From: Anaerolineae bacterium
GTDB taxonomy: Bacteria; Chloroflexota; Anaerolineae; B4-G1; SLSP01
Assembly: GCA_049974845.1 (NCBI GenBank)
Contig: JBNGCP010000006.1
Span: forward strand, 22,386-86,385
DNA length: 64,000 bases
Reading direction: 5' to 3'
The notes below the pieces were generated by a model that ran no database searches, was not told where the DNA came from, and saw only the letters and a program-made list of their open reading frames with translations. Both the position numbers and the translations under genes were made by a program. Below, in pieces: positions 22,086-37,050 of the stretch; the stretch's first letter is position 1, and every line of letters begins with the position of its first letter.

Positions 22086-22991
22086 ATGACCGAGGAACAG
22101 GAGGAGCGCAAGCCGCTAGGAGAGACCTACGGCGGTCAGGCTGTGATTGAGGGCGTCCTGATGCGTGGCAAGTACAACGCCGCCATTGCTGTGCGGCGAC
22201 CCGACGGCGAGGTGATCGTCAAGCACGAATCCTTGGGAGCCCTATACCACGGGCCGATCAGCAAGATCCCTTTTCTGCGGGGTATCCCGATGCTCTGGGA
22301 TTCGCTGGGGTTGGGGATGCGAGCGCTCTTCTTCTCCGCTGAGATCGTCGGTCAGGAGGAGGATCCGGAGTTCTCGATGTCCGGCGGCCTCGGCTTGGCC
22401 ACCGGCGCGTTCTCCCTGCTCCTGGGGATCGGCCTCTTTATGATCCTTCCGTCATTTATTGCCGGCCTGCTCGTGAAGGAGCGGGCCTTCGCCTTCAATC
22501 TCGTCGAGGGTCTGATACGCCTCATCCTCCTGGTCGGCTACATCGCGGCGATCGGGCGGACCGCGGAGATCCGGCGCGTCTTTGCCTATCATGGGGCTGA
22601 GCACAAGACGATCAACGCTCACGAGGACGGCGCGCCCCTGACGGTCGAAGGGGTACGCCCCTACTCGCGCCAGCACGCGCGATGCGGCACGGCCTTCTTG
22701 TTGACCGTCGTGCTCATCTCGGTGCTCGTCCTGTCGCCCCTGGGGCGTCCCTCGCTCCTCCTTCGCGTGGCCTCGAGACTCGCCTTGCTCCCGGTCATCA
22801 CCGGCATCTCCTACGAAGTGCTGCGTTTTACAGGACGTCATAAGGAGAGCCCCCTGATCCGCGCCCTCATCGCGCCCAATCTGGCTCTGCAACGGTTGAC
22901 CACCCAGGAGCCCGACGACTCGATGATCGAGGTCGCCATCTTGGCCCTAAAGGCTGTGCTCAAGGGCGAACGAGAGGCAGTGCAAGCCTAG
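22086..22991 (+). CDS. DUF1385 (YqhQ-like) membrane-associated protein
   Basis: It has the conserved YHGAEHKTINAHE segment and hydrophobic helices. Confidence 0.6.
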   Translation: MTEEQEERKPLGETYGGQAVIEGVLMRGKYNAAIAVRRPDGEVIVKHESLGALYHGPISKIPFLRGIPMLWDSLGLGMRALFFSAEIVGQEEDPEFSMSGGLGLATGAFSLLLGIGLFMILPSFIAGLLVKERAFAFNLVEGLIRLILLVGYIAAIGRTAEIRRVFAYHGAEHKTINAHEDGAPLTVEGVRPYSRQHARCGTAFLLTVVLISVLVLSPLGRPSLLLRVASRLALLPVITGISYEVLRFTGRHKESPLIRALIAPNLALQRLTTQEPDDSMIEVAILALKAVLKGEREAVQA

Positions 22992-23458: not shown

Positions 23459-24202
23459 CTAAGGCTTGTGCGCGCGGATGAGAAAGAAGGGCAGGTGCGC
23501 GACCTGCGACCACGGCCCCGAACGAGTAGCGGCAGCACTCCGGATCTCAGCCAACCTCGACCGCTCTTCCACCGTCAGAGGCAGGTCCTCAAGGTAGTCA
23601 AAGCGCGAGAGAGCGGGCGGAAAAAGGGTATCGAAGAGCGAGATGTGCACGCTAAACCCTCGCTCCGCGAGAAGCCCGGGCAGCTTTCGACCGACATAAG
23701 GATCGGCGCCGGCACGCGTCAGCGCGCTGATCCATAGCGGACGGCTGCGGATCTCAGGTGGATGCTCGATCATCCCATCGTAGTCGGGTTCCAGCGCGAC
23801 GAAGGCCCCGCCGGGCTGCAACACGCGCCAGATCTCATCCACCGCGAGGGACAAAGGGCTGACCCACAGCAGGGTCACCTGCGAGAACACCAAATCAAAG
23901 ACCCCATCGGCGACCGGCAGCCGGGTGGCATCCGCGGCAAGCTTCGAGGTCCCCCTGGGACTCTGCCACGATCGCAGCGCCGCAAACGCAAGGTCTAATG
24001 CGACCACCCGCCCCCGCGACCGTCGTCGAAGCTCCGCAGCAACCGTACCGAACCCAGTCCCGAGGTCGAGAACGCGGTTGCGGCGAGCCACGTGGACCCG
24101 CCGCAACAAAACCGACCGAGCCGGCGCAAGCCATTCAGCCTGCTGTGCCATCAGCGCCGGCTCCGGCAGCGCAAAGCTGAGGCCGCTATTCATTCGCGCC
24201 AA
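23459..24202 (-). CDS. Class I SAM-dependent methyltransferase
   Basis: It has the SAM-binding motif I (VLDLGTGFGTV) and motif post-I (VVALDL). It is the last gene of the minus-strand rSAM cluster. Confidence 0.75.
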   Translation of the reverse strand: MARMNSGLSFALPEPALMAQQAEWLAPARSVLLRRVHVARRNRVLDLGTGFGTVAAELRRRSRGRVVALDLAFAALRSWQSPRGTSKLAADATRLPVADGVFDLVFSQVTLLWVSPLSLAVDEIWRVLQPGGAFVALEPDYDGMIEHPPEIRSRPLWISALTRAGADPYVGRKLPGLLAERGFSVHISLFDTLFPPALSRFDYLEDLPLTVEERSRLAEIRSAAATRSGPWSQVAHLPFFLIRAHKP

Positions 24203-24208
24203 CGCACG

Positions 24209-26113
24209 CTAACGTCCGCCCCCCGCGCAGGCGCAGGCACACGCACAACCGGCGCAGGCGCACGCGCAGCTGCTGCGACCACCACCACCGCTCCCGCCGC
24301 TGCTCTTTGAGGCCTTGGACATCGCCTCAAAGACGTCACCGGTGACACGATCGACGCCACTAAGGTCGACGAAACCACCCTTAGCACCGGGGATGTTCAT
24401 CGAGCCAGGCAGAACCGCCGCAGCCATGCTGCCCATCGTCGTCTCCGCCCAACCGGAAAAAGAGGCCGCGACGTCGCCGAAGGAGGTCCGCCCCCCGCCA
24501 CTGGGGCGCGCGGTCGGCGCCCCGCCGCCGGCGCCCGAGGTCACGGGTCCGCCGGTCGGGCGCGCCCACATGGGCCAGTAGTGGTAACCTCCATGCGTCA
24601 AGACCGTCGGGTAATTGTCGTTCATCATAACCCAGGGCAGATACTTATCGAGGTATTGCTCGCGTTCCCGGACCTCACCCATCTGTCTGGCTTGCTCCAT
24701 CGCCCGCGAGATCACGCGTTCGTAGTACTCCCGGGTCTGCGCGAGGTCGAACCCCTCCATCTTGGCAGCGGTGGACGTGATCAGGCCCTCCATCGCGGCG
24801 GTGAAATCAATCTTCTCCACCGGCTTGTTCGGATTGCGCTCCAACTGATCCAGGAAATCTTGCTCGTAGGCGTGAATGACCGTGCCCGCCTGTTGAGCCG
24901 CCGTTTGACGGGCATTGTGGCGCTTCTTCTTCGAGCGTCGCAGGTCGGGATCGTCCCACATCTTGAATGCATCGTTGACCTTCACGGTCAACGGATCCGG
25001 CTTCACGAGCGTCACGATGCCTTTTTCCAGCAGACCAAACATGGCCAGGGTGAGAATCTTGTGGAGCGGCAACTCCAACAGGATGGCAGCCTCAGGTGCC
25101 GTGAGCCCGCGCTTGATACCGCCACCCTCCACCTGGGCGATGGGTGGCAGATAGTCGTGGGGCTTTTTCTTCAGACGGACTTCATTGAAGATGACAAGCG
25201 CAATCAGCACCGGAATAGCTGGCAGCATCAGAATGGGCGCAGCAAAGAAGAGCAGGATCGCGCCGCCCGCGAGGATAGCAAAGACGGTGCAGCCCGTCCC
25301 GCCCGAGAACCGGAAGAAGAGCAAAGCCAGGAGGCCCACATTGATGGCCCCAAGGATGAGCCGGGCGCCGGGATTGTCGGCAAGCCACCGGTTCACCAGT
25401 TCGATCAACGTCATGCGCTCGACGCGTGTCATCACCCGCTGCGGGAAAGACACCCCGACCATGCGCGGCCCTGTGAGGCTGACATCCTCCCATTCCCAGA
25501 GGACAACGGTGTGGCCCTGGAACAAGGCCCTGTCTGTAAAGGGCTCCTGCTGATAAAGGGCTTCCTCCGGTTCCACGCCTTCAGGCAAGTGAACGGCGAT
25601 TGCAAGCTCGCTCGCACCACGAACGGATTCCTCGTCAAACCAGGTGGGCGTGATGCGGAACGAGGCAAAATCTCGGTTCGTCGTGTCCTGATAGACCATA
25701 TCCGGCATCGTGGCCTCGAAGTGGAGCGTCGCCGTCTCACCCGGTGAGATGGCCATTTCGCGCAGGTGAATCTCGACGCCGATGTCGACATACTCGGAGG
25801 TCCGAATATCGTTCAAGGTGACGCCATCGATGCTGGCTGTCATGTTGTCGATAGTGTAGTCCCTGTGCGGCAGACCAATGTCGACAATGTCGATGGGCGA
25901 TCCCTGGTTTTCGAACGTGATGTCATAGACCAACCGGGCCGAGGCATCGGGTTGGACGTAGACCTGCAATTCCATTCTCGGCACAGCGAACACGTAGCTC
26001 TGTGCGCTTGCCGGATGGATGCTCGCCCCCAGCAACACAAGCACGACAAAGAGTGACACTACCAAAGAGAGGCGTTTAGACATATCCGTGTTCACCTCCG
26101 TGCGATGCTCCAT
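24209..26113 (-). CDS. Large membrane protein A, DUF2207-like architecture, with C-terminal Gly-rich/Cys-Ala tail (…GGSGGGGRSSCACACAGCACACACAGGGR)
   Basis: It is 634 aa with a signal/TM, a ~230-aa extracytoplasmic domain, a TM cluster, a ~300-aa cytoplasmic domain (YHYWP) and a Gly-rich segment ending in a 7-Cys alternating Cys-Ala tail. It is a paralog of 26140..27915. Confidence 0.7.
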   Translation of the reverse strand: MEHRTEVNTDMSKRLSLVVSLFVVLVLLGASIHPASAQSYVFAVPRMELQVYVQPDASARLVYDITFENQGSPIDIVDIGLPHRDYTIDNMTASIDGVTLNDIRTSEYVDIGVEIHLREMAISPGETATLHFEATMPDMVYQDTTNRDFASFRITPTWFDEESVRGASELAIAVHLPEGVEPEEALYQQEPFTDRALFQGHTVVLWEWEDVSLTGPRMVGVSFPQRVMTRVERMTLIELVNRWLADNPGARLILGAINVGLLALLFFRFSGGTGCTVFAILAGGAILLFFAAPILMLPAIPVLIALVIFNEVRLKKKPHDYLPPIAQVEGGGIKRGLTAPEAAILLELPLHKILTLAMFGLLEKGIVTLVKPDPLTVKVNDAFKMWDDPDLRRSKKKRHNARQTAAQQAGTVIHAYEQDFLDQLERNPNKPVEKIDFTAAMEGLITSTAAKMEGFDLAQTREYYERVISRAMEQARQMGEVREREQYLDKYLPWVMMNDNYPTVLTHGGYHYWPMWARPTGGPVTSGAGGGAPTARPSGGGRTSFGDVAASFSGWAETTMGSMAAAVLPGSMNIPGAKGGFVDLSGVDRVTGDVFEAMSKASKSSGGSGGGGRSSCACACAGCACACACAGGGR

Positions 26114-26139: not shown

Positions 26140-27915
26140 TCAGCGCCCGCCACCGGCACAGGCACAGGCGCAGGCGCAGCCTGCGCACGCACAGGCACAA
26201 CTGCTCCCCGAGCCTCCCCGCGAGACGGTCACACCAGTGGACGGTTTGCTGAGCGTGGTCGGCAGAATGGCAGCTGCCATCCCGCCCATCGTCGTCTCCG
26301 CCCAGCCGGCAAAGGAAGCCGACACATCACCAAAGGTGGTGGACGGTCGCCCTGATCCACCCGAGACAGCCCCTCCACCGATGCTACTTCCGGCAGTGCT
26401 CACCGTACCGCGAGCTTGTCGCGCCCACACGGGCCAGTAATGGTAACCGCCCAGCCTCAGGGCCGGCCTGTAGTTCGGCCGCATCATGACCCAAGGGAGG
26501 TACTTATCGAGATAGGCCTCACGCTGCTCGATCTCGCCAATGCTCGCAGCCTGCTCCATCGCACGATCGATCACCCGACGATAGTACTCCTGGGTATCGG
26601 AGAGATCGAAACCCTCCATCTTCGCTGCGACGCCGTCGACGAGCTTCTGCATCGGGTTGACGACGGGCAGCTCCTTGACCGGCTTGCCGGGATGGACCTC
26701 GATCAGGTCCAGGAACGGATGCTCGTACTCGTGGATCACGGTGCCCTTCTGTTGGGCCACCTGACGGCGATAGCGCTTCCGGCTCTCCGCGTCCTTTAAT
26801 TCGGGCTTGCCTTCCACCTGAAAGTCGTCGACGACCTCCAGGGTGAGAGGATCTGCATCAGTCTGGCGCACGAGTCCCTTTTCCAGCATTCCAAAGACCA
26901 CCAGCCCCAGCACCTTGGTTAGGGGCAGCTCCAGGACGATCGCGGCTTCCGGAGCCGTAAGTCCGCGCTTGATGCCGCCGCCCTCAACTTGTGCGATCGG
27001 GGGAAGATAGTTGGGTTTGAGGCCGCGGATGACGGCGCGAACGATGACGAAGATAAAGAAGGCGGGAATGGCAACGGGCAGACAGAACATAAGGATCGCC
27101 CCGATCACGGGAAGCACCCCGCCCAACCATCGTCCAAGCAAATCCCAGAAGGTGACCTCAATGACGTTGGTCATGCCACGTCGGGGGAACGAGACGCCCA
27201 CCCGATAGGCCTCCGTCAACCGGATGTCCTCGTACCGCCAGATCGCCACGACTCGCCCCTCATCGTCCAGCACCTTGTCGTCGAAAGGCTCATCCTGGTA
27301 GAGAACCTCGTCGAGCTCGATACTCGGCAGCGTCCTGACCCGAATCTCGACGTCACTCGTGCCCTGCACGAGTTCGCCGTCGAACCAGGTTGGCGTGATC
27401 TGCAGGGAAGCGTTCTCCTCGTTGGTCGTATCGGCATAGACCATCTCAGGCGAGTCAAACTCGAGATGCAGTGTCCCCGTCTCGCCCGCCGGAATAGCGT
27501 ACGGCCCTAGATGGATCTCCACGCCAACGTCGATGTATTCTGAAGGGCGGATGTCCGACACCGGATTGCCGTCGATCGTCGCCACCATCTGATCGACGTC
27601 GTAATCGGCGTTCGGCGTGCCGATATCCACAATGTCGATGGGATCTCCGGAGTTCTCGAACGTGATGTCGTAGACGATGTGGGCGGAGCCATCGGGTTGT
27701 ACAGTTGCACTCAGCAATAGCTCGGGCACGGCGAAGCGGTAAGTCTGCACGTAGGGGCGCGCCAGAACAGTGCCGGCGCCCGAGCCGAGAAGACCCAGGA
27801 GCACAGCCAAGGCCACGACCAGCGCCACAGCCCGCCTTCTGATCGTCGGGGCCACCGTCCTCTCGCGCGTGTCCACCCTTCCGTGGGAGTGTCTATGACC
27901 GGCTGGTCGGGTCAT
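26140..27915 (-). CDS. Large membrane protein B, paralog of A, with identical C-terminal tail SSCACACAGCACACACAGGGR
   Basis: The track ORF extends to 27933, but the probable start is ATG 27915..27913. That ATG overlaps the TGA of the upstream rSAM-like gene by 1 nt. It has the same domain order as protein A; the last 21 aa are identical although encoded by different codons. Confidence 0.7.
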   Translation of the reverse strand: MTRPAGHRHSHGRVDTRERTVAPTIRRRAVALVVALAVLLGLLGSGAGTVLARPYVQTYRFAVPELLLSATVQPDGSAHIVYDITFENSGDPIDIVDIGTPNADYDVDQMVATIDGNPVSDIRPSEYIDVGVEIHLGPYAIPAGETGTLHLEFDSPEMVYADTTNEENASLQITPTWFDGELVQGTSDVEIRVRTLPSIELDEVLYQDEPFDDKVLDDEGRVVAIWRYEDIRLTEAYRVGVSFPRRGMTNVIEVTFWDLLGRWLGGVLPVIGAILMFCLPVAIPAFFIFVIVRAVIRGLKPNYLPPIAQVEGGGIKRGLTAPEAAIVLELPLTKVLGLVVFGMLEKGLVRQTDADPLTLEVVDDFQVEGKPELKDAESRKRYRRQVAQQKGTVIHEYEHPFLDLIEVHPGKPVKELPVVNPMQKLVDGVAAKMEGFDLSDTQEYYRRVIDRAMEQAASIGEIEQREAYLDKYLPWVMMRPNYRPALRLGGYHYWPVWARQARGTVSTAGSSIGGGAVSGGSGRPSTTFGDVSASFAGWAETTMGGMAAAILPTTLSKPSTGVTVSRGGSGSSCACACAGCACACACAGGGR

Positions 27916-29222
27916 CACCCACCTCGGGCCCATCCTTCTGGATCACGCGGGCACGCAGCCGCGCAAATGGCAAGGCCAGGGCAGACCTCGCAGCGGGTCG
28001 GCGCCTCCACGCGCTCGCGATAGTCGCGAAAGACCGCGTCGTTCCAGATCGTGTCCCATGAGTCCCGCAGAAGGTTACCCGCACTCCGGTAGGGCCCACG
28101 GGGTGGGATGACCTCACCGGTGGGCTCGATGCGGACGGCCACGTCCCCAGAGCATCGCGGCCCCTGCAGAATCTGGTCCATCAACGACCTGTTTGGATCC
28201 CTTTCCACCGGCGGATCCCAGATGAACCGTGCGTTGGCCATATCAGCGGTCTCCTCGACGGTCGCAGCCACCTGAGCCATGCCCTCGCGGCTGAAGATAC
28301 CCTCGGCCCGCGCGAGCTGTGGATCCGTCGTCGGATAAGCGATAAAGGAGAGATTGTCAGCGCCATTCGCGATGAGCACGTCCACCGTCGCGTTGATGCG
28401 ATCGAGCGTCGCCTGGACCAAGGGGATCTCGGCCACCGCCGCGATCTGATAAGTCTCCAGCCAATCGAGCACGCTCTGTGCCATAAGGAAATCGCCCTCG
28501 CCGCAGAGGCTATCGTGAATCTCTTGGTCGGCCGCAGCATAGAGGAAGGTCACGTGGTCGACGCCGGTCTGACGAAGGTCGGGCAGGAATCCTTCCACGG
28601 CCAAGGTTGTCGCACGTCCCCTGACACCGGCGATCATGCCCAGATCTTCCGCTCGCTCCACAACCCTTAGCACATCGGTCGGCTCACAGCCGTATGGGAC
28701 GAGGATCGTCACGTGCGGGATCCCCACTTCCCAAAGGCGGTCGAGAATGGGTATAATCACCTTCGGCTCCACCAGTGGCACCGTCGCCTGCAGCGGAGCG
28801 ATGAGCTCGGCAGCATAGGGGGAGAGCGAGGCATCCTCCAGATTGAAGACCGGATACGTATCACCGGGCGCCCTAAGTCGCTCAATGAGAGCGTGCACCT
28901 TCGCGATGTCCCCGCGTACGATCTCCTCCTTGGCGCCGGAGAAGTGCGCTCTCAACCTCTCAACGATCTCGTCGGGGGTTCGGCCCTCAAGCAGGCCCTT
29001 GGCAATGACCACACCCGACGCCGTCAAACGAGCGGCAGCCATCGCGTTGGCGATCAGCATCCCGCTGCCATCCTTCTCCACCCGCAGGTGGAATCGGGCA
29101 AACGCGTCGTCGGTCTCCTGCATCACGTGATAGAGCCCGGGCTCTACGGGCGCGGTGGGTTCGGCGCGCTCAAAGGACAGCAAGCGCTTCAACCAGTCCT
29201 GGGCCATAGACGACCTCCTCAC
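27915..29222 (-). CDS. Degenerate radical-SAM/SPASM-like protein (CxxxCxxC lost, SPASM Cys cluster retained)
   Basis: It is 435 aa and aligns along its length with the 30581..32086 rSAM protein (PGLY...RV.EDGSG N-domain, IPHVTIL core). Where the paralog has YACNNACPHC it has no Cys triad. It retains the C-terminal GPRCSGD...CEVCPGLAICAAACP cluster. Confidence 0.65.
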   Translation of the reverse strand: MRRSSMAQDWLKRLLSFERAEPTAPVEPGLYHVMQETDDAFARFHLRVEKDGSGMLIANAMAAARLTASGVVIAKGLLEGRTPDEIVERLRAHFSGAKEEIVRGDIAKVHALIERLRAPGDTYPVFNLEDASLSPYAAELIAPLQATVPLVEPKVIIPILDRLWEVGIPHVTILVPYGCEPTDVLRVVERAEDLGMIAGVRGRATTLAVEGFLPDLRQTGVDHVTFLYAAADQEIHDSLCGEGDFLMAQSVLDWLETYQIAAVAEIPLVQATLDRINATVDVLIANGADNLSFIAYPTTDPQLARAEGIFSREGMAQVAATVEETADMANARFIWDPPVERDPNRSLMDQILQGPRCSGDVAVRIEPTGEVIPPRGPYRSAGNLLRDSWDTIWNDAVFRDYRERVEAPTRCEVCPGLAICAAACPRDPEGWARGG

Positions 29223-29225
29223 AAC

Positions 29226-29942
29226 CTATGCTTGTTGGGGTTGTTGGTATTTTCTTTCGAACAGATCGGGCTCGTAAGCCGCACGTCGCCCCGGACATTC
29301 CCCCCGCGGGCAGAGCTGGCAGCTCTCAAACCGCTCCTCCGTCGGGAATCGAATGCCGGAGATGGTCTTGTTTGGGATCATCAGAAAGCTCTCGGTCAGC
29401 TGCACCCCAATCGCCGCCTCGGGATCCCCGAGAATCCGGAAAAGGGGACGCTGCTGCCGGATCGGCCAATCGGCCAAGGAGCCCGGAGCCATCGTCGACG
29501 TGCGTCCCAAGGCATAGCACTCGTACAGATGGGCGTTAAGCGCCTGCGTCGCCGCCCCCAGCGCGGCCTCCTTGATCGCGTCAGCCCAGTAACGATAGAG
29601 CATATCGTCGAGGCCGTCACTCCAGGTCTGCAGTTCCGCCCCGCACGTGGCGATATAGACGAAAACCCGATGAGCCACCGCAAGGTTGACTCGCAATACG
29701 CGGCTGTGCAGCCTCACGCCGTCGACGGTCACACTCTCGTCGGACCTGTCGTCGACGTAGGCGAGCTTGTACATGGCCTTAGGCCTGGCGATCGCCGCGG
29801 CTGTCTTGAGCAGCCCGGCAAACTCGGCAAGCTGCTGGCTGCCGTCCTTGAGCCTCAGACGTTTGGCCAATGAGCCAAGGTCAGGCTGAAAAACAATGTC
29901 ATCGAGTATGTAAGGTCTCTCGCCGTTATCGATTGCGTTCAT
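29226..29942 (-). CDS. MetH activation-domain-like (AdoMet-binding) protein with C-terminal CxxCxxxxC motif
   Basis: It is 238 aa. The segment LTESFLMIPNKTISGIRF and the preceding PGSLADWP resemble the conserved core of the B12-dependent methionine synthase reactivation domain (E. coli LTESFAMWPGASVSGWYF). The C-terminus is SCQLCPRGECPG. Confidence 0.5.
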   Translation of the reverse strand: MNAIDNGERPYILDDIVFQPDLGSLAKRLRLKDGSQQLAEFAGLLKTAAAIARPKAMYKLAYVDDRSDESVTVDGVRLHSRVLRVNLAVAHRVFVYIATCGAELQTWSDGLDDMLYRYWADAIKEAALGAATQALNAHLYECYALGRTSTMAPGSLADWPIRQQRPLFRILGDPEAAIGVQLTESFLMIPNKTISGIRFPTEERFESCQLCPRGECPGRRAAYEPDLFERKYQQPQQA

Positions 29943-29986: not shown

Positions 29987-30523
29987 TCACGATCGGTGGG
30001 CCACCAACAGCCCTCGAATCAGGGCCAACAGCCCCAGGCCGATGAAGAGGATCGGCCACCCGATGAAGTCCAGGCCAAGACCGCTGATATTCAGGATCAG
30101 TTCAAAGAAGACCAGGCCCACGAGAAACATGATCAGCCCGATGTTCACCAGGGTCGAACCGGTCCGTATGGCGCTCTCCCTACGCTTGCTCCAACCATAG
30201 AGCATCTCTGCCAAGCCTATACCAGTTGGGGTGATCAGCGCCCACACGTAGGCCCAACTGGTCCAGTGCCCTGTGACACTTTGATAGAGCAGCACCAATC
30301 CTACCATCGTGACAATCCCGCTCAACATTGCGAAAGGCTCACTCAAGGGCGTATCGGCGGCAAGGGCGAAGAGGAAGATCAAGACGCCGGGCAGAATGAC
30401 AAAGAAGGGCCACAGGAAAGCGCCGATGTTGAGCTGCAAAAACTGCCCGACCAGGGCCAGGACCCCCAGGACGATCAGAGCAATACCGAGTGCCCGAACA
30501 AACGCTCTTGGTCCCTCAAACAT
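29987..30523 (-). CDS. Integral membrane protein (5-6 TM), unknown function
   Basis: It is a 178-aa, very hydrophobic protein inside the rSAM cluster. Confidence 0.55.
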   Translation of the reverse strand: MFEGPRAFVRALGIALIVLGVLALVGQFLQLNIGAFLWPFFVILPGVLIFLFALAADTPLSEPFAMLSGIVTMVGLVLLYQSVTGHWTSWAYVWALITPTGIGLAEMLYGWSKRRESAIRTGSTLVNIGLIMFLVGLVFFELILNISGLGLDFIGWPILFIGLGLLALIRGLLVAHRS

Positions 30524-30580: not shown

Positions 30581-32086
30581 CTAGCGTCGCGTCCCCGTCA
30601 GGACGCCCTCCTGTGTCGCAGATCGATCGTCGGTGAATGACACGACGCGGCCCGACCCCCGTCGGGTAGGGCGAGAACACCCGCGCTCAGCCGCCCGAAT
30701 CCCGGCCCGCGCTTCTCGCTCCAACCGGCATCCCCCCCCGCACATCTCCAGGTCCGGACAATCCCAGCAGGCCTCCGGCAACCCCGCGGCTTGCGGGTCC
30801 TCCTCACGATTTCGGAAGCTGAGGAAGAGCTCGCTATTCCATATACTCTCCCACGGATCGGCAAGGATGTTGCCTGCGGTGACGTAGTAAGACTGACAAG
30901 GGAGGACGACGCCGTTGGGCTCGATGCAGATCGAGTATTCGGCTGCATTGCAGCGCTTGGGCGGCAGGCCCAGCGCCACCGGGGACAAGCGGCAGTAGTC
31001 GGTCACCGTGTACCAGAGGAACCGCATGTTGAGCCGCTCGGCCTCGTCCCTCACCGCAGCGAGCAGGGCCGCCATGTCCTCAGCCGGAATGGCAGCGGGC
31101 GTACTCGTCCCTCCTCCGGCATGGATAATACCGTTCATCGCGAAGGTCTGTAGACCTAACTCATGGAGAAACCTGACGGTATCGAGGACGTGATCCTGAT
31201 TTTGCCGGGTAACGGTCGTATTGGTGATGGTGTGTATGCCGGCGTCCAGCGCGCTCTGAATCCCCGCAACCGTCTCTTCGAAAGCGCCCTCCACACCCAC
31301 CATCTCATCATGGACGGAGCGGTAGCACGACTCCAGCGTGATCTGCACGTGGTTGAGCCCTGCTGCTGCCAGCGAGGTCGTCAACACTCGATCCGCGAGG
31401 CGACGTCCGTTGCTGTTCATGCCGACGATCAGACCGAGTCCGTCGGCATACCGAACCAACTGCGCCAGGGCGGGATGGAGTGTCGGCTCACCGCCGGTCA
31501 GGATGACGTGAGGAATGCCGATGTCCAGGATCCGATCGAAGACCCGCATCCAGTCGCGCGTGGTGAGCGAAGCCATCGCGAACCGTTCCTGCTCGTTATA
31601 GCAATGTGGGCAGGCATTGTTGCAGGCATAGGTGAGCGCGACGTCCACCTTATAGGGCGCCGTGACGGGCGTGCTGAAGATCGGCTGAAAATCCACAAGC
31701 GGCCCTAGGGCGCACGTCGGACAGATATTGTCGGTCTCTCGCAAACGCCGAACCATATCATACATCGTGGCGACCGCCTCCGAGAGCTCTCCTTTCGTGA
31801 CACCGCGGTACCGACGAATCATCCGGTCTCGCGCCTCGGCCTGCGGGACGTCGTCCAGCGCTAGCTTGACCATCTCGACGGCAGTCGCATTAAGATGGAT
31901 CACGTCGGTGACGTCGATAAAGAGCACGCCCGAGCCATCCTCGTTGACGCGTAGATGCACGCGGCGCTGCCCCCCGTCCAAGACCAAGGGATAGCTGTAG
32001 AGGCCGGGAGCCATTGCCACCGACCCAGGCTGCAACAGAGCCCGGACGGTAGTCATCAGACGATGCCACTCCGACGATAGATTCAT
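30581..32086 (-). CDS. Radical SAM/SPASM-domain maturase with N-terminal extension
   Basis: It has the canonical CxxxCxxC (YACNNACPHCYNE), a GGEPTL SAM-binding motif and a C-terminal SPASM region (CQSYY...CWDCPDLEMCGGGC). The ~120-aa N-terminal domain is shared with the degenerate paralog. Confidence 0.85.
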   Translation of the reverse strand: MNLSSEWHRLMTTVRALLQPGSVAMAPGLYSYPLVLDGGQRRVHLRVNEDGSGVLFIDVTDVIHLNATAVEMVKLALDDVPQAEARDRMIRRYRGVTKGELSEAVATMYDMVRRLRETDNICPTCALGPLVDFQPIFSTPVTAPYKVDVALTYACNNACPHCYNEQERFAMASLTTRDWMRVFDRILDIGIPHVILTGGEPTLHPALAQLVRYADGLGLIVGMNSNGRRLADRVLTTSLAAAGLNHVQITLESCYRSVHDEMVGVEGAFEETVAGIQSALDAGIHTITNTTVTRQNQDHVLDTVRFLHELGLQTFAMNGIIHAGGGTSTPAAIPAEDMAALLAAVRDEAERLNMRFLWYTVTDYCRLSPVALGLPPKRCNAAEYSICIEPNGVVLPCQSYYVTAGNILADPWESIWNSELFLSFRNREEDPQAAGLPEACWDCPDLEMCGGGCRLEREARAGIRAAERGCSRPTRRGSGRVVSFTDDRSATQEGVLTGTRR

Positions 32087-32316: not shown

Positions 32317-32724
32317 TCACCACTTTGGGGCTTCTTCGATCTGGTAAGAGGCCCCACAGTACGGACACTCGACGAAAATGGCGCCCGCCTTGACCTCAAG
32401 GTTGCCCTTGCTCAGGGCGCCGCCACAGGACCGACACTTCAGCTGCTCTAGCTGAACATCGCCCGACAGGTCGATCTTCTGTACGTGGGTGTGTTCCTCA
32501 TGTTTGGGGCGAACGCGCGTCAGATAGATGAGCACGCCGGCCGCAGCGAAAAGGATCAGACCGACGACGATGCGTATAACCTGTCCCTGCGATCCCACCA
32601 CAAACATAAACCCGAAAAAGGCCACCACCGCGGCAATCAGGTAGGTCAAGAGCTCCATCGCGTTCTCCTCCACAGGCGTTTTGGGTTGCAGCAGGTAGTA
32701 TAGTCGATCCGCCATGCTCGTCAA
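32317..32724 (-). CDS. Small membrane protein with C-terminal zinc-ribbon (CxxC-x15-CxxC)
   Basis: It is 135 aa with two TM helices and then CRSCGG...CPYCG. It is the first gene of the minus-strand cluster; its start may be the internal Met (MELLTYL). Confidence 0.55.
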   Translation of the reverse strand: MTSMADRLYYLLQPKTPVEENAMELLTYLIAAVVAFFGFMFVVGSQGQVIRIVVGLILFAAAGVLIYLTRVRPKHEEHTHVQKIDLSGDVQLEQLKCRSCGGALSKGNLEVKAGAIFVECPYCGASYQIEEAPKW

Positions 32725-33997: not shown

Positions 33998-35331
33998 TCA
34001 GGCGGGGGTCGCCTCGGCACCGTCCTCGAGGATGACCTCGCCCGCATCGCCGTCGACGGTGACGGTCATCCCGCTTTGAATGCGCTTCGTAGCGACGCCG
34101 GTGCCCAGGACAGCAGGGATGCCGTACTCACGGGCGACGATGGAGCCGTGGCTCAGCGGCCCACCGATGTTGGTGACGATGCCCGAGGCCATCGCGAAGA
34201 GCGGCGTCCAGGCTGGCGTGGTGACGTCCGCCACGAAGATGTCCCCGTGCTGCATCTGATCGAAGTCCTCGGGACCGTGCAGCACCCGCGCGCACCCCGT
34301 CACCCGGCCCGGGCTGGCGCCGAGCCCTTGAGCGCGGTCTCTTTCTGTTCCTCCGCGCTTGTCGGGACGTAAGCGTCCGTCTTGAGGCCCATCACCCGTT
34401 CCTTGTACGGCAACTGTGGCGGAGGCGTGACGCGCTTCTCGGCGCGCCACGTCATCTTTCGCTCCTTAACGCGCTCTGCGTACGTCCCCAGCGGCTCATC
34501 GCGGTCGAGGGCGGCAGCTGCGGTCTCCACTTCGTCCCGCTCAAGCCAGAAGATGTCGTCCGGCGCCTCAAGCGCTCCGGCGTCGACCATGCGCTGACCC
34601 AGCTCCTGCAACATCTGTCGGATGTAGGGATAGGCCAGACCGATATCAAAGATGCTGTCCTCACGCACCACTGTGAAGGTCTGCGCCCATTCCAGTGTCT
34701 TGTTGAAGATTTTGCGTCTCAGGCCACCAACCCTCTCCCGCACCGCCGCGATCGCCTCCTCGCGCTCCTCGCGCAGTCGCTGCTGGCGCGCATAGGGGTT
34801 CTGCCCCTCACCCCGAAGGAAGATGATGAAAGTTCGCAATGGTGGGGTCGGGTCGTCAGCCGGGACGGGTTTGGCGAAGTCAAGATCGTAAATACTGTGC
34901 CCGTACTCGTCCAGATAGGCTCGGAAGCGCTCTAACCATCCCTGCCACGGATCGGCGCGGACGCCGGAGGGAACACCCTTGTGCTTCAGCCCATCTACCA
35001 GCTCGGAGATCAGGGCACGTGTCAGGTAAGCCGTCAGACCCTCATACTCCCGGCACCATTCGGCCAGATCGTAAAGCGCTTTCTCCGCCTGGATGGGCAG
35101 GCTGTCCGCACCGAGGAGGAACGTCGGTGCCGGCGGATCCTGGGCGCCCTTGCGCTTGATCAGCTTCTGGTAGACTGTCGTGAAGAGCATCTCGGAGCCT
35201 GCAGCGATTCCAAGGGTGTCGACCTGCAGCGCGGTGATGGCGCGGGCCTGCACGATGGCGAACTCTCCCTCGACCATCGCCCACTCGATATCACGGGGGT
35301 CGCCGAAGAGCTCCTCGATCTCGCGGCCCAA
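33998..35331 (-). pseudogene. PEP-utilising enzyme (PEP synthase/rifampin-phosphotransferase-like) remnant, N-terminally truncated and frameshifted
   Basis: The 343-aa ORF carries the end of the ATP-grasp/PPDK_N domain (DIEWAMVEGEFAIVQARAIT). The 150-aa ORF carries the PEP-utiliser mobile domain (GGPLSHGSIVAREYGIPAV). The two are joined by a -1 shift at a G-run (ctcaagggctcggc versus expected ctcaaggggctcggc). About 330 N-terminal residues are missing. Confidence 0.65.
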
Positions 35332-35739: not shown

Positions 35740-37050
35740 CTAGTTCGCCGGGTTCAGCGTGCGACCAACGAAGAGCAGCGCGCCGGTCTCGATATCGCGA
35801 ATCAGGAAGATAAAGGGGCGGTCCACCGTCATCTCCACCGGCTCCTCGGGCATCGCCGAGGTCAGGCCGACGACGACGGCAGTCGCCGCCGCTGCCTCGG
35901 TGCCCTCCTCATCCACGGAGACGAAAGCCTGGTGGAGCACATCGGTAATCATCAGCTCCCGCCGCTCGTTTATGCCGGAGAAATCAGCCTCCTCAGTGAA
36001 GGCCACGGGCATGCCCAGCTCCGATAGCGCATCGGTCAGGCTGAACTTCGATGAGAACTCGAATCGGGGCATCGCCAGGTTGACGCGCTGGCTCTGCAGT
36101 GCGCTGAGGATCGAAGCCAGCTTCTCGCGGTCGAGGTCGCGTTCAAAGTCGGCGAACTCCCCGGAATCCGGCAGCAGGATCACCATCGACAGCTCGCGCC
36201 CGTCATAGGGAAGCTCGACTGCCTGATAGCCGTCCCCCGCCGTATAAGCAAAGCGTTCAGTTTGGCGCATCATCGGAACCTCAACGGAGCTCCCATCGAG
36301 AAGGTAGAAGGGGCCGTCTTCGGTCCGGCTCTCCTCAAAGGGCTCGGCCCAGGCAGCGTTGAAGTAGATTGCGTTGGTGAGGACCAGTCGGGTGAAGGCA
36401 TCGAGCACGCCTTGGGGGATCAGATCCTCGATCCGTCCCTCGGTCTGTTCGCTGACCCAGGCGTTGATCGTCTGGCGGGCCCCTTCGGCGTCTTCGACGA
36501 AGTCCACCAGGCGCAAACCTGCGCCGTAGTTCCGGGCGAGCGTGTCGAGGAAGGCCTGCTCGAAGTCGTAGCCTTGTTGGCCCCACAGCGCGTTGACGAC
36601 GTGCAGTCGGAAGCCCTCACCGTCCTTGCCCTTGGCGTCCTCCCCACGCGCACTCAGAATCAGATCGAGCTGATTGAATGCAGCGTGAAGCTCATCCTGA
36701 GGCAGCGTGAAGTGGAGCGTATCCGCCATCTGGGACTCCGTCTCACCGCGCGCGCCGGCATACGTCATCGCGAGCGCCACCGAGATGCTGTGCGGCGAGA
36801 GGAACAGGTCGTCCTGCGACCGATCCGCCAGGTAACGATACAGTTCCAGGGCAAAAGCCTGGTTATCCTCCACGAGCCGCGCAAGCGCCTGTCCGCTGAC
36901 GTCCGGCTCGGCGATGCGCGACGCGTCCGAGGCCGCTAAAACGATCTTGTCTCCCATAGCGTTGTCACCCAATGGATTGAGCCCACACCCTACAAGTCCA
37001 AGAAGGACCACTAGCCATACAAAGCGTTTCACATAAGTCTGCATGTGCAT
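35740..37050 (-). CDS. Serpin-family protease inhibitor, lipoprotein
   Basis: It has a lipobox (LGLVGCG), serpin motifs (NAIYFNAAWAEPF; hinge and RCL region GTEAAAATAVVV; C-terminal PFIFLIRDIETGALLFVGR) and is 436 aa. Confidence 0.8.
   Translation of the reverse strand: MHMQTYVKRFVWLVVLLGLVGCGLNPLGDNAMGDKIVLAASDASRIAEPDVSGQALARLVEDNQAFALELYRYLADRSQDDLFLSPHSISVALAMTYAGARGETESQMADTLHFTLPQDELHAAFNQLDLILSARGEDAKGKDGEGFRLHVVNALWGQQGYDFEQAFLDTLARNYGAGLRLVDFVEDAEGARQTINAWVSEQTEGRIEDLIPQGVLDAFTRLVLTNAIYFNAAWAEPFEESRTEDGPFYLLDGSSVEVPMMRQTERFAYTAGDGYQAVELPYDGRELSMVILLPDSGEFADFERDLDREKLASILSALQSQRVNLAMPRFEFSSKFSLTDALSELGMPVAFTEEADFSGINERRELMITDVLHQAFVSVDEEGTEAAAATAVVVGLTSAMPEEPVEMTVDRPFIFLIRDIETGALLFVGRTLNPAN

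What the first reader, a model, noticed from the sequence alone, without database searches (positions are those of the whole stretch)
27915..29222. Catalytically degenerate rSAM paralog that keeps its SPASM cluster and is translationally coupled to a tail protein
The 435-aa protein is collinear with the canonical rSAM/SPASM enzyme, sharing the N-domain, the TIM-barrel core (GIPHV[TI]L) and the C-terminal Cys-rich SPASM-like region. It has no CxxxCxxC where the paralog has YACNNACPHC. Its TGA overlaps the probable ATG of tail protein B (TGATG at 27913-27917), which implies coupled translation and 1:1 stoichiometry. Pseudo-enzyme rSAM partners are rare. This one might serve as a scaffold or chaperone, or as an auxiliary-cluster electron conduit for the active paralog.
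Basis: seen in the sequence. Interest (0 to 1): 0.7.

Follow-up and report, generated by a model that had tools for sequence, protein, structure and literature searches.

The report
Inactive radical-SAM paralog for Cys-Ala tails
This gene encodes a well-conserved copy of a radical-SAM peptide-modifying enzyme that has lost its catalytic iron-sulfur site, and it most likely acts as a non-catalytic helper in an undescribed pathway that modifies an invariant cysteine-alanine tail on membrane proteins.

Summary
The ORF is real, but its likely start is ATG 29207, giving 430 aa. It is collinear with the neighbouring rSAM/SPASM enzyme (27% identity, E 1e-36). Its predicted fold matches the RiPP maturases SkfB and SuiB. 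A 22-residue deletion removes the CxxxCxxC loop, and the SAM-binding motifs are degenerate. No ortholog has the motif. The gene is under strong purifying selection (dN/dS about 0.09-0.12).

"Keeps its SPASM cluster" is only half right. CX2CX5CX3C is invariant in close orthologs, but two of the seven SPASM cysteines are gone. Several lineages, a sister pseudo-clade and a natural fusion protein have lost these cysteines entirely. That argues against electron conduit as the core role.

The TGATG overlap exists but is conserved in only about 4-6 of 22 loci.

The gene belongs to a widespread unannotated cassette: zinc-ribbon protein, active rSAM, pseudo-rSAM, one or two membrane proteins ending in invariant CACA(CA)GCACACACAGGGR, and a methyltransferase. 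A fusion of the pseudo-rSAM to the tail protein supports physical association.

Best reading: a non-catalytic docking or scaffold subunit. It is a new variant of a kind already annotated, the pseudo-SAM/SPASM proteins.

The parts
27915..29207 (-). Pseudo-rSAM/SPASM gene (430 aa plus stop). It comprises an RRE-like N-domain, a degenerate radical-SAM barrel and a partial SPASM region.
28872..29150 (-). RRE/PqqD-like peptide-recognition domain (residues about 20-112): four strands followed by three helices.
   Evidence: Pfam PqqD 19.6 bits, below the gathering score of 23.4. NCBIfam lasso PqqD chaperone E 3.8e-5. Secondary structure E24-31, E36-43, E49-53, E57-61, H63-73, H78-88, H94-112. The FHLRV..DG.G.L..N block is shared by all four paralog clades.
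28764..28778 (-). Site of the 22-residue deletion that removed the CxxxCxxC cluster loop (residues 144-148).
   Evidence: Paralog alignment. The AF2 model has a 3-residue turn between strand 140-144 and helix 148-161. 0 of 115 aligned orthologs have Cys at these columns.
27951..27992 (-). Retained CX2CX5CX3C motif (CEVCPGLAICAAAC; C406, C409, C415, C419).
   Evidence: Translation. Invariant in 115 of 115 close orthologs. Present in 29 of 30 complete orthologous ORFs in the fetched loci.
28152..28154 (-). Cys352, the first SPASM cysteine. It is 92% conserved among close orthologs and absent in distant ones (L021, L022).
27913..27917 (-). TGATG: the stop codon of the pseudo-rSAM overlaps the probable ATG of tail protein B by one base. 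GAGG lies 6 nt upstream.
   Evidence: Sequence. The overlap is conserved in only a minority of orthologous loci.
30581..32086 (-). Active RRE-rSAM-SPASM enzyme (CNNACPHC, GGEPT, full SPASM cysteine set).
   Evidence: Pfam Radical_SAM 4.8e-25 and SPASM 6.4e-10. 97 of 98 orthologs carry CxxxCxxC, and the one exception is masked sequence.
26140..27915 (-). Tail protein B (591 aa). It has a signal peptide, an outer beta-rich domain, TM segment(s), a cytoplasmic domain and a C-terminal CACACAGCACACACAGGGR (26140-26199 with stop).
   Evidence: 52% identical to tail protein A. No Pfam or NCBIfam family.
24209..26083 (-). Tail protein A (624 aa as deposited) with the same invariant C-terminal tail (24209-24268 with stop).
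   Evidence: AF2: beta-sandwich 32-214, helices 238-306, helical domain 329-486, low-confidence tail. All 120 listed homologs end in CACAGCACACACAGGGR.
23459..24202 (-). Class I SAM-dependent methyltransferase, the last gene of the cassette.
   Evidence: Pfam Methyltransf_11 2.1e-18. Conserved downstream of the tail gene in most loci.
32317..32724 (-). 135-aa membrane protein with a C-terminal zinc-ribbon-like CxxC...CxxC, the first gene of the cassette.
   Evidence: Conserved upstream of the active rSAM or the tail gene in both cassette types. Only weak zinc-ribbon hits.
29226..29942 (-). Accessory 238-aa protein with a weak match to the MetH activation (SAM-binding) domain and a C-terminal CxxCx4C. 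It occurs only in a subclade of loci.
   Evidence: Pfam Met_synt_B12 23.8 bits, below the gathering score of 25. Present in L001-L007, L015, L020, L067, L098 and L114.
29987..30523 (-). Accessory 178-aa polytopic membrane protein. It occurs only in the closest loci.
   Evidence: L001, L015; L098. No family hit.

Best explanation
The gene encodes a pseudo-enzyme. It is an old paralog of the neighbouring RRE-rSAM-SPASM maturase that has lost the radical-SAM [4Fe-4S] site and the SAM-binding motifs. It has kept the peptide-recognition (RRE-like) N-domain, the barrel scaffold and the SPASM beta-hairpin.

It most likely works as a non-catalytic docking or presenting subunit. It would bind the cytoplasmic C-terminal region of the co-encoded membrane 'tail' proteins, and probably the active paralog too. 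The active rSAM/SPASM enzyme and then the methyltransferase could then modify the invariant seven-cysteine (Cys-Ala)n tail.

In this window's subfamily the retained CX2CX5CX3C probably still holds one Fe-S cluster or a metal, in a structural or accessory redox role. That is not the conserved core function.

What is shown: loss of the catalytic site, the fold, purifying selection, conserved synteny, and a natural fusion to the tail protein. What is inferred: binding of the tail, cooperation with the active paralog, the chemistry done on the tail (probably thioether or other Cys/Ala-directed radical chemistry), and cluster occupancy.
For: - Loss of catalytic site: a 22-aa deletion removes the CxxxCxxC loop. 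GGE becomes VPYGCEP and is not conserved in orthologs. NSNG becomes VRGRA. The motif is found in 0/120, 0/30 and none of about 50 representatives.
- The gene is functional: dN/dS is 0.085-0.118, like the active paralog at 0.036-0.121. 40 columns are invariant across 43 sequences, including Planctomycetaceae and Armatimonadetes MAG relatives.
- RRE retained in both paralogs.
- Linkage to the substrate gene: the pseudo gene lies immediately upstream of the tail gene in 22 of 22 genome loci. The same holds in 9 of 9 type-1 loci retrieved independently by the tail DNA motif. A pseudo-tail-methyltransferase trio occurs without an adjacent active rSAM in L013, L014, L021 and L081.
- Fusion: P0292 (948 aa, 2 cluster members from NCBI and JGI) joins pseudo residues 1-335 to a complete tail protein. 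It lies between the active rSAM and the methyltransferase, and no SPASM remnant is found in the other frames.
- A sister pseudo clade (type-2 cassette) has no cysteines for any cluster yet is retained in 33 of 35 type-2a loci. The unrooted NJ topology ((act1,act2),(ps1,ps2)) fits one old duplication.
Against: - No binding or activity data exist, and no heteromer model could be run.
- The active paralog has its own RRE, so the need for a second one is unexplained.
- Type-2b loci mostly lack a local pseudo gene (8 of 10). In L056 and L095 the cassette is flanked by unrelated housekeeping genes. The helper is therefore not universally required, or it is encoded elsewhere.
- The invariance of CX2CX5CX3C and of several Arg, His and Asp residues in the close subfamily would also fit a cluster-dependent or other catalytic role.
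- The fusion is a single lineage. A search seeded with it found no second one.
Confidence: 0.5

Rival explanations
1. Redox partner or electron conduit. The remaining auxiliary-type Fe-S cluster shuttles electrons to or from the active rSAM/SPASM enzyme during repeated thioether-type turnovers on the seven-Cys tail.
For: CX2CX5CX3C is invariant in 115 of 115 close orthologs and C352 is 92% conserved. Pfam SPASM scores above its gathering threshold. For the thioether-forming rSAM/SPASM enzyme PapB, re-activation after each turnover needs intermolecular electron transfer, probably through the second auxiliary cluster (PMC10470005).
Against: Two of the seven canonical SPASM cysteines are gone, and a further Aux-I-position Cys of the active paralog is Arg. 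The motif is lost altogether in L048, in about 10 cluster representatives and in the fusion protein. The whole type-2 pseudo clade has none (0 of 42). Yet all of these genes are kept in the cassette.
Confidence: 0.12
2. Neo-functionalised enzyme. The barrel has a new, non-radical-SAM activity on the tail, for example acid-base, metal- or cluster-dependent chemistry on Cys/Ala residues, or cluster or metal delivery to the Cys-rich tail.
For: There are many invariant polar residues in the barrel and hairpin that the active paralog does not share (R196, R351, R370, R397). Purifying selection is strong. Pseudo-enzymes defined from sequence sometimes retain relocated catalytic residues (general knowledge).
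Against: No known catalytic motif was detected by Pfam or NCBIfam. The residues that distinguish this clade are not shared with the type-2 pseudo clade, which occupies the same place in the cassette.
Confidence: 0.2
3. Post-modification handler. It binds the already modified tail, acting as a product chaperone, regulator, or protector against premature oxidation or disulfide formation, rather than presenting the unmodified tail.
For: The pseudo-tail-methyltransferase module can be separated from the active rSAM. A fusion to the tail protein exists.
Against: Nothing distinguishes this reading from the presenting model. The RRE domains of characterised systems bind unmodified precursor segments (established for PqqD-type RREs; background knowledge).
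Confidence: 0.12
4. Decaying pseudogene, or an annotation or sequencing artefact that hides a normal rSAM.
For: None beyond the missing motif.
Against: The deletion is in-frame and shared by all orthologs. dN/dS is about 0.09-0.12. The family spans several phyla, with 141 cluster representatives at E <= 1e-30. The ATG start has a good SD, and no upstream extension is possible because the upstream gene's stop codon is at 29226-29228.
Confidence: 0.01

Closest known systems
NCBIfam TIGR04347 'pseudo-SAM/SPASM protein' and TIGR04304 'GeoRSP system SPASM domain protein' (also, from memory, TIGR04150 pseudo-rSAM of the GG-Bacteroidales system)
   Same: These are rSAM/SPASM homologs without a working radical-SAM Cys triad. 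From memory of the family descriptions, at least TIGR04304 and TIGR04150 are encoded beside a true rSAM/SPASM maturase and its target. The concept is the same, and like this protein they have no experimentally shown function.
   Different: The window protein does not belong to them. TIGR04347 gives no hit at E <= 10, and the L022 ortholog scores 27.6 bits against a cut-off of 525. TIGR04304 scores 11 bits against a cut-off of 300. This family carries an N-terminal RRE. Its presumed target is the C-terminus of a roughly 600-aa membrane protein rather than a short peptide.
RRE-rSAM-SPASM/twitch RiPP maturases with solved structures: SkfB (6efn), SuiB (5v1q), CteB (5why/5wgg), PqqE (6c8v)
   Different: Those proteins are active enzymes with CxxxCxxC and SAM-binding motifs. 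Here the cluster loop is deleted, the GGE and ribose motifs are degenerate, and the cysteines at Aux-I positions are largely replaced.
Stand-alone RRE chaperones PqqD and MftB
   Same: The proposed job is the same: a non-catalytic protein that binds the substrate and cooperates with an rSAM/SPASM enzyme. There is weak PqqD-family similarity in the N-domain.
   Different: PqqD and MftB are proteins of about 90-100 aa that supply the RRE their enzyme lacks (background knowledge). Here the helper is a full-length degenerate enzyme, and the active enzyme has its own RRE.
PapB-type thioether-forming rSAM/SPASM enzymes (ranthipeptide and sactipeptide synthases)
   Same: They offer a plausible model for the chemistry of the active paralog on a Cys-rich substrate. 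They also show why an extra Fe-S protein could help turnover (PMC10470005).
   Different: No modification of the (Cys-Ala)n tail has been shown. The substrate is a large membrane protein, and the acceptor residues could only be Ala or Gly.

Membership tests
Radical SAM superfamily (PF04055) | [quoted passage not shown] | tested here: not met
   The loop is deleted. The motif is absent from 0/120, 0/30 and none of about 50 representatives.
Radical SAM superfamily (PF04055) | SAM-binding motifs (GGE; ribose motif on strand 4) | tested here: not met
   GGEPT becomes VPYGCEP, and orthologs have VERDCNE, VRPEAPA or ALPDVRK. NSNG becomes VRGRA.
Radical SAM superfamily (PF04055) | Partial TIM-barrel fold of the rSAM core | tested here: met
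Radical SAM superfamily (PF04055) | Match to the family HMM | tested here: not met
   No PF04055 hit at E <= 0.01 for the window protein. A few orthologs carry a precomputed PF04055 hit.
SPASM domain (PF13186 / TIGR04085) | Match to the domain HMM above the curated threshold | tested here: inconclusive
   Pfam 23.9 bits, above the gathering score of 21.5. NCBIfam TIGR04085 19.9 bits, below the cut-off of 27.
SPASM domain (PF13186 / TIGR04085) | Seven-Cys pattern CX9-15GX4C ... CX2CX5CX3C ... C that ligates two auxiliary clusters | tested here: not met
   5 of 7 cysteines are present. The Gx4C Cys is Pro (99 of 115 orthologs) and the terminal Cys is absent. A further Aux-I-position Cys of the active paralog (C387) is Arg.
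SPASM domain (PF13186 / TIGR04085) | Actual binding of auxiliary Fe-S cluster(s) | not testable with these tools
   This needs iron and sulfide analysis, UV-vis and EPR on purified protein.
PqqD-like RiPP recognition element (PF05402) | HMM match, and a winged-helix-like fold of a three-stranded sheet plus three helices | tested here: inconclusive
   PF05402 19.6 bits, below 23.4. NF033530 23.8 bits, below 70. The predicted secondary structure of residues 24-112 fits the fold. Peptide binding was not tested.
Curated pseudo-SAM/SPASM families (TIGR04347; GeoRSP SPASM protein TIGR04304) | Score above the family cut-off | tested here: not met
   TIGR04347 is not detected for the window protein. 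TIGR04304 scores 11 bits against 300.
Curated pseudo-SAM/SPASM families (TIGR04347; GeoRSP SPASM protein TIGR04304) | Defining idea: an rSAM/SPASM homolog without the Cys triad, encoded next to a true rSAM/SPASM paralog and its target | tested here: met
   Synteny with the active paralog and the tail genes is seen in most loci.

The most novel reading that the evidence does not exclude
The cassette is an undescribed protein-maturation pathway. In it an invariant seven-cysteine (Cys-Ala)n-Gly-(Cys-Ala)n-GGGR tail on a bitopic or polytopic membrane protein is converted into a new structure, for example a ladder of thioether cross-links or a built-in metal- or cluster-binding site. The conversion would be carried out by an rSAM/SPASM enzyme together with an obligate, substrate-holding pseudo-rSAM paralog. 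That would be the first case in which a degenerate radical-SAM protein is shown to be a required subunit for modifying a full-length protein.
Probability: 0.3. Interest if true: 0.8.

Novelty: new variant of a known kind. Interest (0 to 1): 0.55.

Why it matters
Pseudo-rSAM partners are annotated in a few curated families, but as far as I could find none has a demonstrated function. This family offers an unusually clean test case. It has an active and an inactive paralog side by side and an obvious, invariant and short target sequence. It also shows natural variation in which the Fe-S motif is kept, partly lost or fully lost, and a natural fusion to the substrate protein.

The target is a 17-19-residue Cys-Ala tail that stays identical between proteins only about 26-36% identical elsewhere. 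It belongs to no Pfam or NCBIfam family. The chemistry installed on it is therefore likely to be new, and it is widespread in Anaerolineae from sludge, sediment and soil metagenomes.

Tried and rejected
- Alternative start or sequence error hiding a CxxxCxxC: rejected. The upstream gene's stop codon is at 29226-29228, the deletion is internal and in-frame, and all orthologs share it.
- Decaying pseudogene: rejected on dN/dS.
- PDB sequence-profile search with the ortholog alignment found nothing at E <= 0.01. Only fold comparison worked.
- The afdb50 library was not available for the tail-protein model, so the fold of the tail protein's domains was not compared with anything.
- Literature searches found no paper on this family or on the tail. 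Terms tried were pseudo-rSAM, pseudo-SAM, GG-Bacteroidales, pseudoenzyme plus radical SAM or SPASM, and Cys-Ala repeat. The Haft and Basu 2011 paper is not held.
- A search seeded with the fusion protein, looking for more fusions, returned only itself and one tail protein.
- Looking for a stand-alone RRE gene replacing the pseudo-rSAM in type-2b loci found only unrelated housekeeping genes.
- Membership of TIGR04347, TIGR04304 and the ACGX system: rejected on score.
Full report
**Observation**

The ORF at 27915..29222(-) is real. Its GTG start lies inside the Shine-Dalgarno GAGGAGG (29214-29220). The ATG at 29207 follows that SD by 6 nt, and the resulting 430-aa protein is identical to a deposited MAG protein named 'SPASM domain-containing protein [Anaerolineae bacterium]' (P0001). 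I use 430-aa numbering throughout.

BLASTP against the rSAM/SPASM enzyme at 30581..32086(-) gives 27% identity over 473 columns, E 1e-36, collinear end to end. Pfam finds SPASM (23.9 bits, gathering score 21.5) and a sub-threshold PqqD match (19.6 bits). It finds no Radical_SAM domain. The neighbour has Radical_SAM at 4.8e-25 and SPASM at 6.4e-10. TGATG at 27913-27917 is present, with GAGG 6 nt before that ATG.

**Fold**

An AlphaFold2 model built on 38 sequences is confident (pLDDT 83.7, pTM 0.83). Its best structural neighbours are RiPP maturases with an N-terminal recognition domain and a SPASM or twitch extension:
- Foldseek: SuiB E 1.6e-12, SkfB 5e-10.

The protein is therefore a true member of this fold family, not a chance look-alike.

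**What is lost and what is kept**

I aligned active and inactive paralogs from many loci. In this protein a 22-residue deletion removes the whole CxxxCxxC loop. In the model, strand 140-144 connects to helix 148-161 by a 3-residue turn. GGEPT becomes VPYGCEP and is not conserved among orthologs. The NSNG ribose motif becomes VRGRA.

In the SPASM part:
- The Gx4C cysteine is Pro.
- The cysteine of the active paralog at the Aux-I position (C387) is Arg359.
- The terminal cysteine is absent.
- C352 is 92% conserved.
- CX2CX5CX3C (C406, C409, C415, C419; 27951-27992) is invariant in 115 of 115 close orthologs.

At most one auxiliary-type cluster seems possible. Whether it is bound cannot be tested here.

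**Family and selection**

- 584 homologs have E <= 1e-5. The top 120 are >=56% identical, and none has CxxxCxxC.
- A profile search of 1.84 billion cluster representatives finds 141 at E <= 1e-30.
- About 50 full-length (>=390 aa) representatives are of the pseudo type, and none has the motif at the rSAM position. About 10 of them also lack CX2CX5CX3C. True rSAM enzymes appear only below about 230 bits.
- In the fetched loci the split is clean. 30 complete type-1 pseudo ORFs have the rSAM motif in 0 cases and the SPASM motif in 29. 42 type-2 pseudo ORFs have 0 and 0. 98 active paralogs have 97 and 98, and the single exception is masked sequence.
- dN/dS against three orthologs is 0.085-0.118, like the active paralog.

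**Context**

The gene sits in a conserved cassette on the minus strand:
- a zinc-ribbon membrane protein (32317-32724);
- the active rSAM (30581-32086);
- two accessory genes found only in a subclade (29987-30523 and 29226-29942);
- the pseudo-rSAM;
- tail protein B (26140-27915);
- tail protein A (24209-26083);
- a methyltransferase (23459-24202).

22 genome loci share this order. They come from Anaerolineae and from Planctomycetaceae, Armatimonadetes and 'Zipacnadum' MAGs.

Every tail protein ends in CACA(CA)GCACACACAGGGR. All 120 listed homologs of tail protein A end in CACAGCACACACAGGGR. The codons vary synonymously, so selection acts on the protein. These proteins match no Pfam or NCBIfam family.

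An AF2 model of tail protein A shows an N-terminal helix, a confident beta-sandwich (32-214), three long helices (238-306), a helical domain and a low-confidence C-terminus. By inference the tail is cytoplasmic, and therefore reachable by the rSAM proteins.

**A second cassette type**

In Anaerolineaceae-type loci the tail is CACACACAGCACACAGGGR. The order is zinc-ribbon, tail, active rSAM, second paralog, methyltransferase. That second paralog also lacks CxxxCxxC. It keeps GGEPT but has no SPASM cysteines at all, because it is truncated after the hairpin.

An NJ tree gives the unrooted topology ((act1,act2),(ps1,ps2)). This fits one old duplication followed by different decay paths. Long-branch effects cannot be excluded.

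**Unbiased co-occurrence**

I scanned metagenome contigs with a back-translated tail motif alone and recovered 120 loci. Almost all carry real tail genes.
- Type-1 tails have the pseudo gene immediately upstream in 9 of 9 loci with enough sequence.
- Type-2a loci have their pseudo paralog in 33 of 35.
- Type-2b loci have it in only 2 of 10. In L056 and L095 the three-gene core is flanked by unrelated housekeeping genes.
- Conversely, L013, L014, L021 and L081 hold pseudo, tail and methyltransferase without an adjacent active rSAM.

The genes thus form separable modules. The helper is common but not always local.

**Coupling**

A stop/start overlap of the pseudo and tail genes is seen in the window, L001, L008 and L022, and possibly in L007 and L020. 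Elsewhere the gap is about 1-158 nt. Tight operon linkage is conserved. The overlap, and any strict 1:1 stoichiometry inferred from it, is not.

**A natural fusion**

P0292 (948 aa) is in a cluster with two members, one from an NCBI assembly and one from a JGI assembly. It joins pseudo residues 1-335 directly to a complete tail protein that ends GGGCACACAGCACACACAGGGR. In locus L155 it lies between the active rSAM and the methyltransferase, with 4-nt overlaps on both sides. No SPASM remnant is found in the other reading frames.

This supports a physical association between the pseudo-rSAM and the tail protein. It also shows that the Fe-S motif is dispensable for whatever the two do together. 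It is one lineage only.

**Mechanism**

The features shared by all pseudo lineages are the RRE-like domain, the barrel scaffold and the SPASM hairpin (EP.G.V.P ... GN.L.D.W..IW). They are not any set of cluster ligands.

I therefore favour a non-catalytic docking or presenting subunit for the tail region that works with the active paralog (confidence 0.5). The electron-conduit idea is chemically reasonable: PapB needs intermolecular electron transfer through an auxiliary cluster (PMC10470005). But it cannot be the conserved function. It may be an added role in this subfamily (0.12). A new non-radical activity (0.2) and a product-handling role (0.12) remain open.

**Comparison with known families**

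NCBIfam already holds pseudo-SAM/SPASM families: TIGR04347, the GeoRSP SPASM protein TIGR04304, and from memory TIGR04150. The kind is therefore known. This protein scores far below their cut-offs. It also differs in carrying an RRE and in being tied to a large membrane protein with a Cys-Ala tail. I found no paper on this family or on the tail in the held library.

**Verdict**

This is a new variant of a known kind. The most interesting aspect is the cassette and its invariant tail rather than the pseudo-enzyme alone.

Noticed in passing
window 24209-24268 and 26140-26199 (-): Both large membrane proteins end in the identical 19-residue tail CACACAGCACACACAGGGR. The last 17 residues are invariant in all 120 listed homologs, and in loci where the rest of the protein is only about 26-36% identical. 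The codons vary synonymously. There is no Pfam or NCBIfam family and no literature hit. This is arguably the more surprising feature of the region.
   Followed up: partly
L023-L034 and most of L035-L154 (e.g. L024 3168-4373, L028 2342-3589): There is a second cassette type with the permuted tail CACACACAGCACACAGGGR. Its pseudo-rSAM paralog keeps GGEPT but has lost both the CxxxCxxC and every SPASM cysteine. In metagenomes it is more common than the window's type.
   Followed up: partly
L155 486-3332 (protein P0292): A natural fusion joins the pseudo-rSAM (RRE plus barrel, SPASM part deleted) to a complete Cys-Ala-tail membrane protein. It lies between the active rSAM and the methyltransferase. 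The protein's cluster has two members, one from an NCBI and one from a JGI assembly.
   Followed up: yes
L056, L083, L095, L116 (type-2b loci): These loci hold a minimal three-gene form (zinc-ribbon protein, tail protein, active rSAM) with no pseudo-rSAM or methyltransferase nearby. In L056 and L095 the checked flanks hold unrelated housekeeping genes. The missing genes may lie elsewhere in those genomes.
   Followed up: partly
window 29226-29942 (-): A 238-aa protein has a weak match to the SAM-binding activation domain of cobalamin-dependent methionine synthase (23.8 bits, below the gathering score) and a C-terminal CQLCPRGEC motif. It is inserted between the active and inactive paralogs only in a subclade of loci. 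Its role is unknown.
   Followed up: no
window 33998-35331 (-): A PEP-utilising enzyme gene appears split into two ORFs in different frames that overlap by about 150 nt. The 343-aa ORF has a PPDK_N fragment and the 150-aa ORF has the mobile domain. This is a probable frameshift, either a pseudogene or a MAG assembly error.
   Followed up: no
window 22086-22991 (+): A DUF1385 gene is convergent with the cassette. It is conserved at this position in the closer Anaerolineae loci (L001-L004, L007, L015, L020, L038, L047). This is probably just local synteny.
   Followed up: no
window 35740-37050 (-): A bacterial serpin with a signal or lipoprotein-like N-terminus (Pfam Serpin 8.7e-120). It is unrelated to the cassette.
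   Followed up: no
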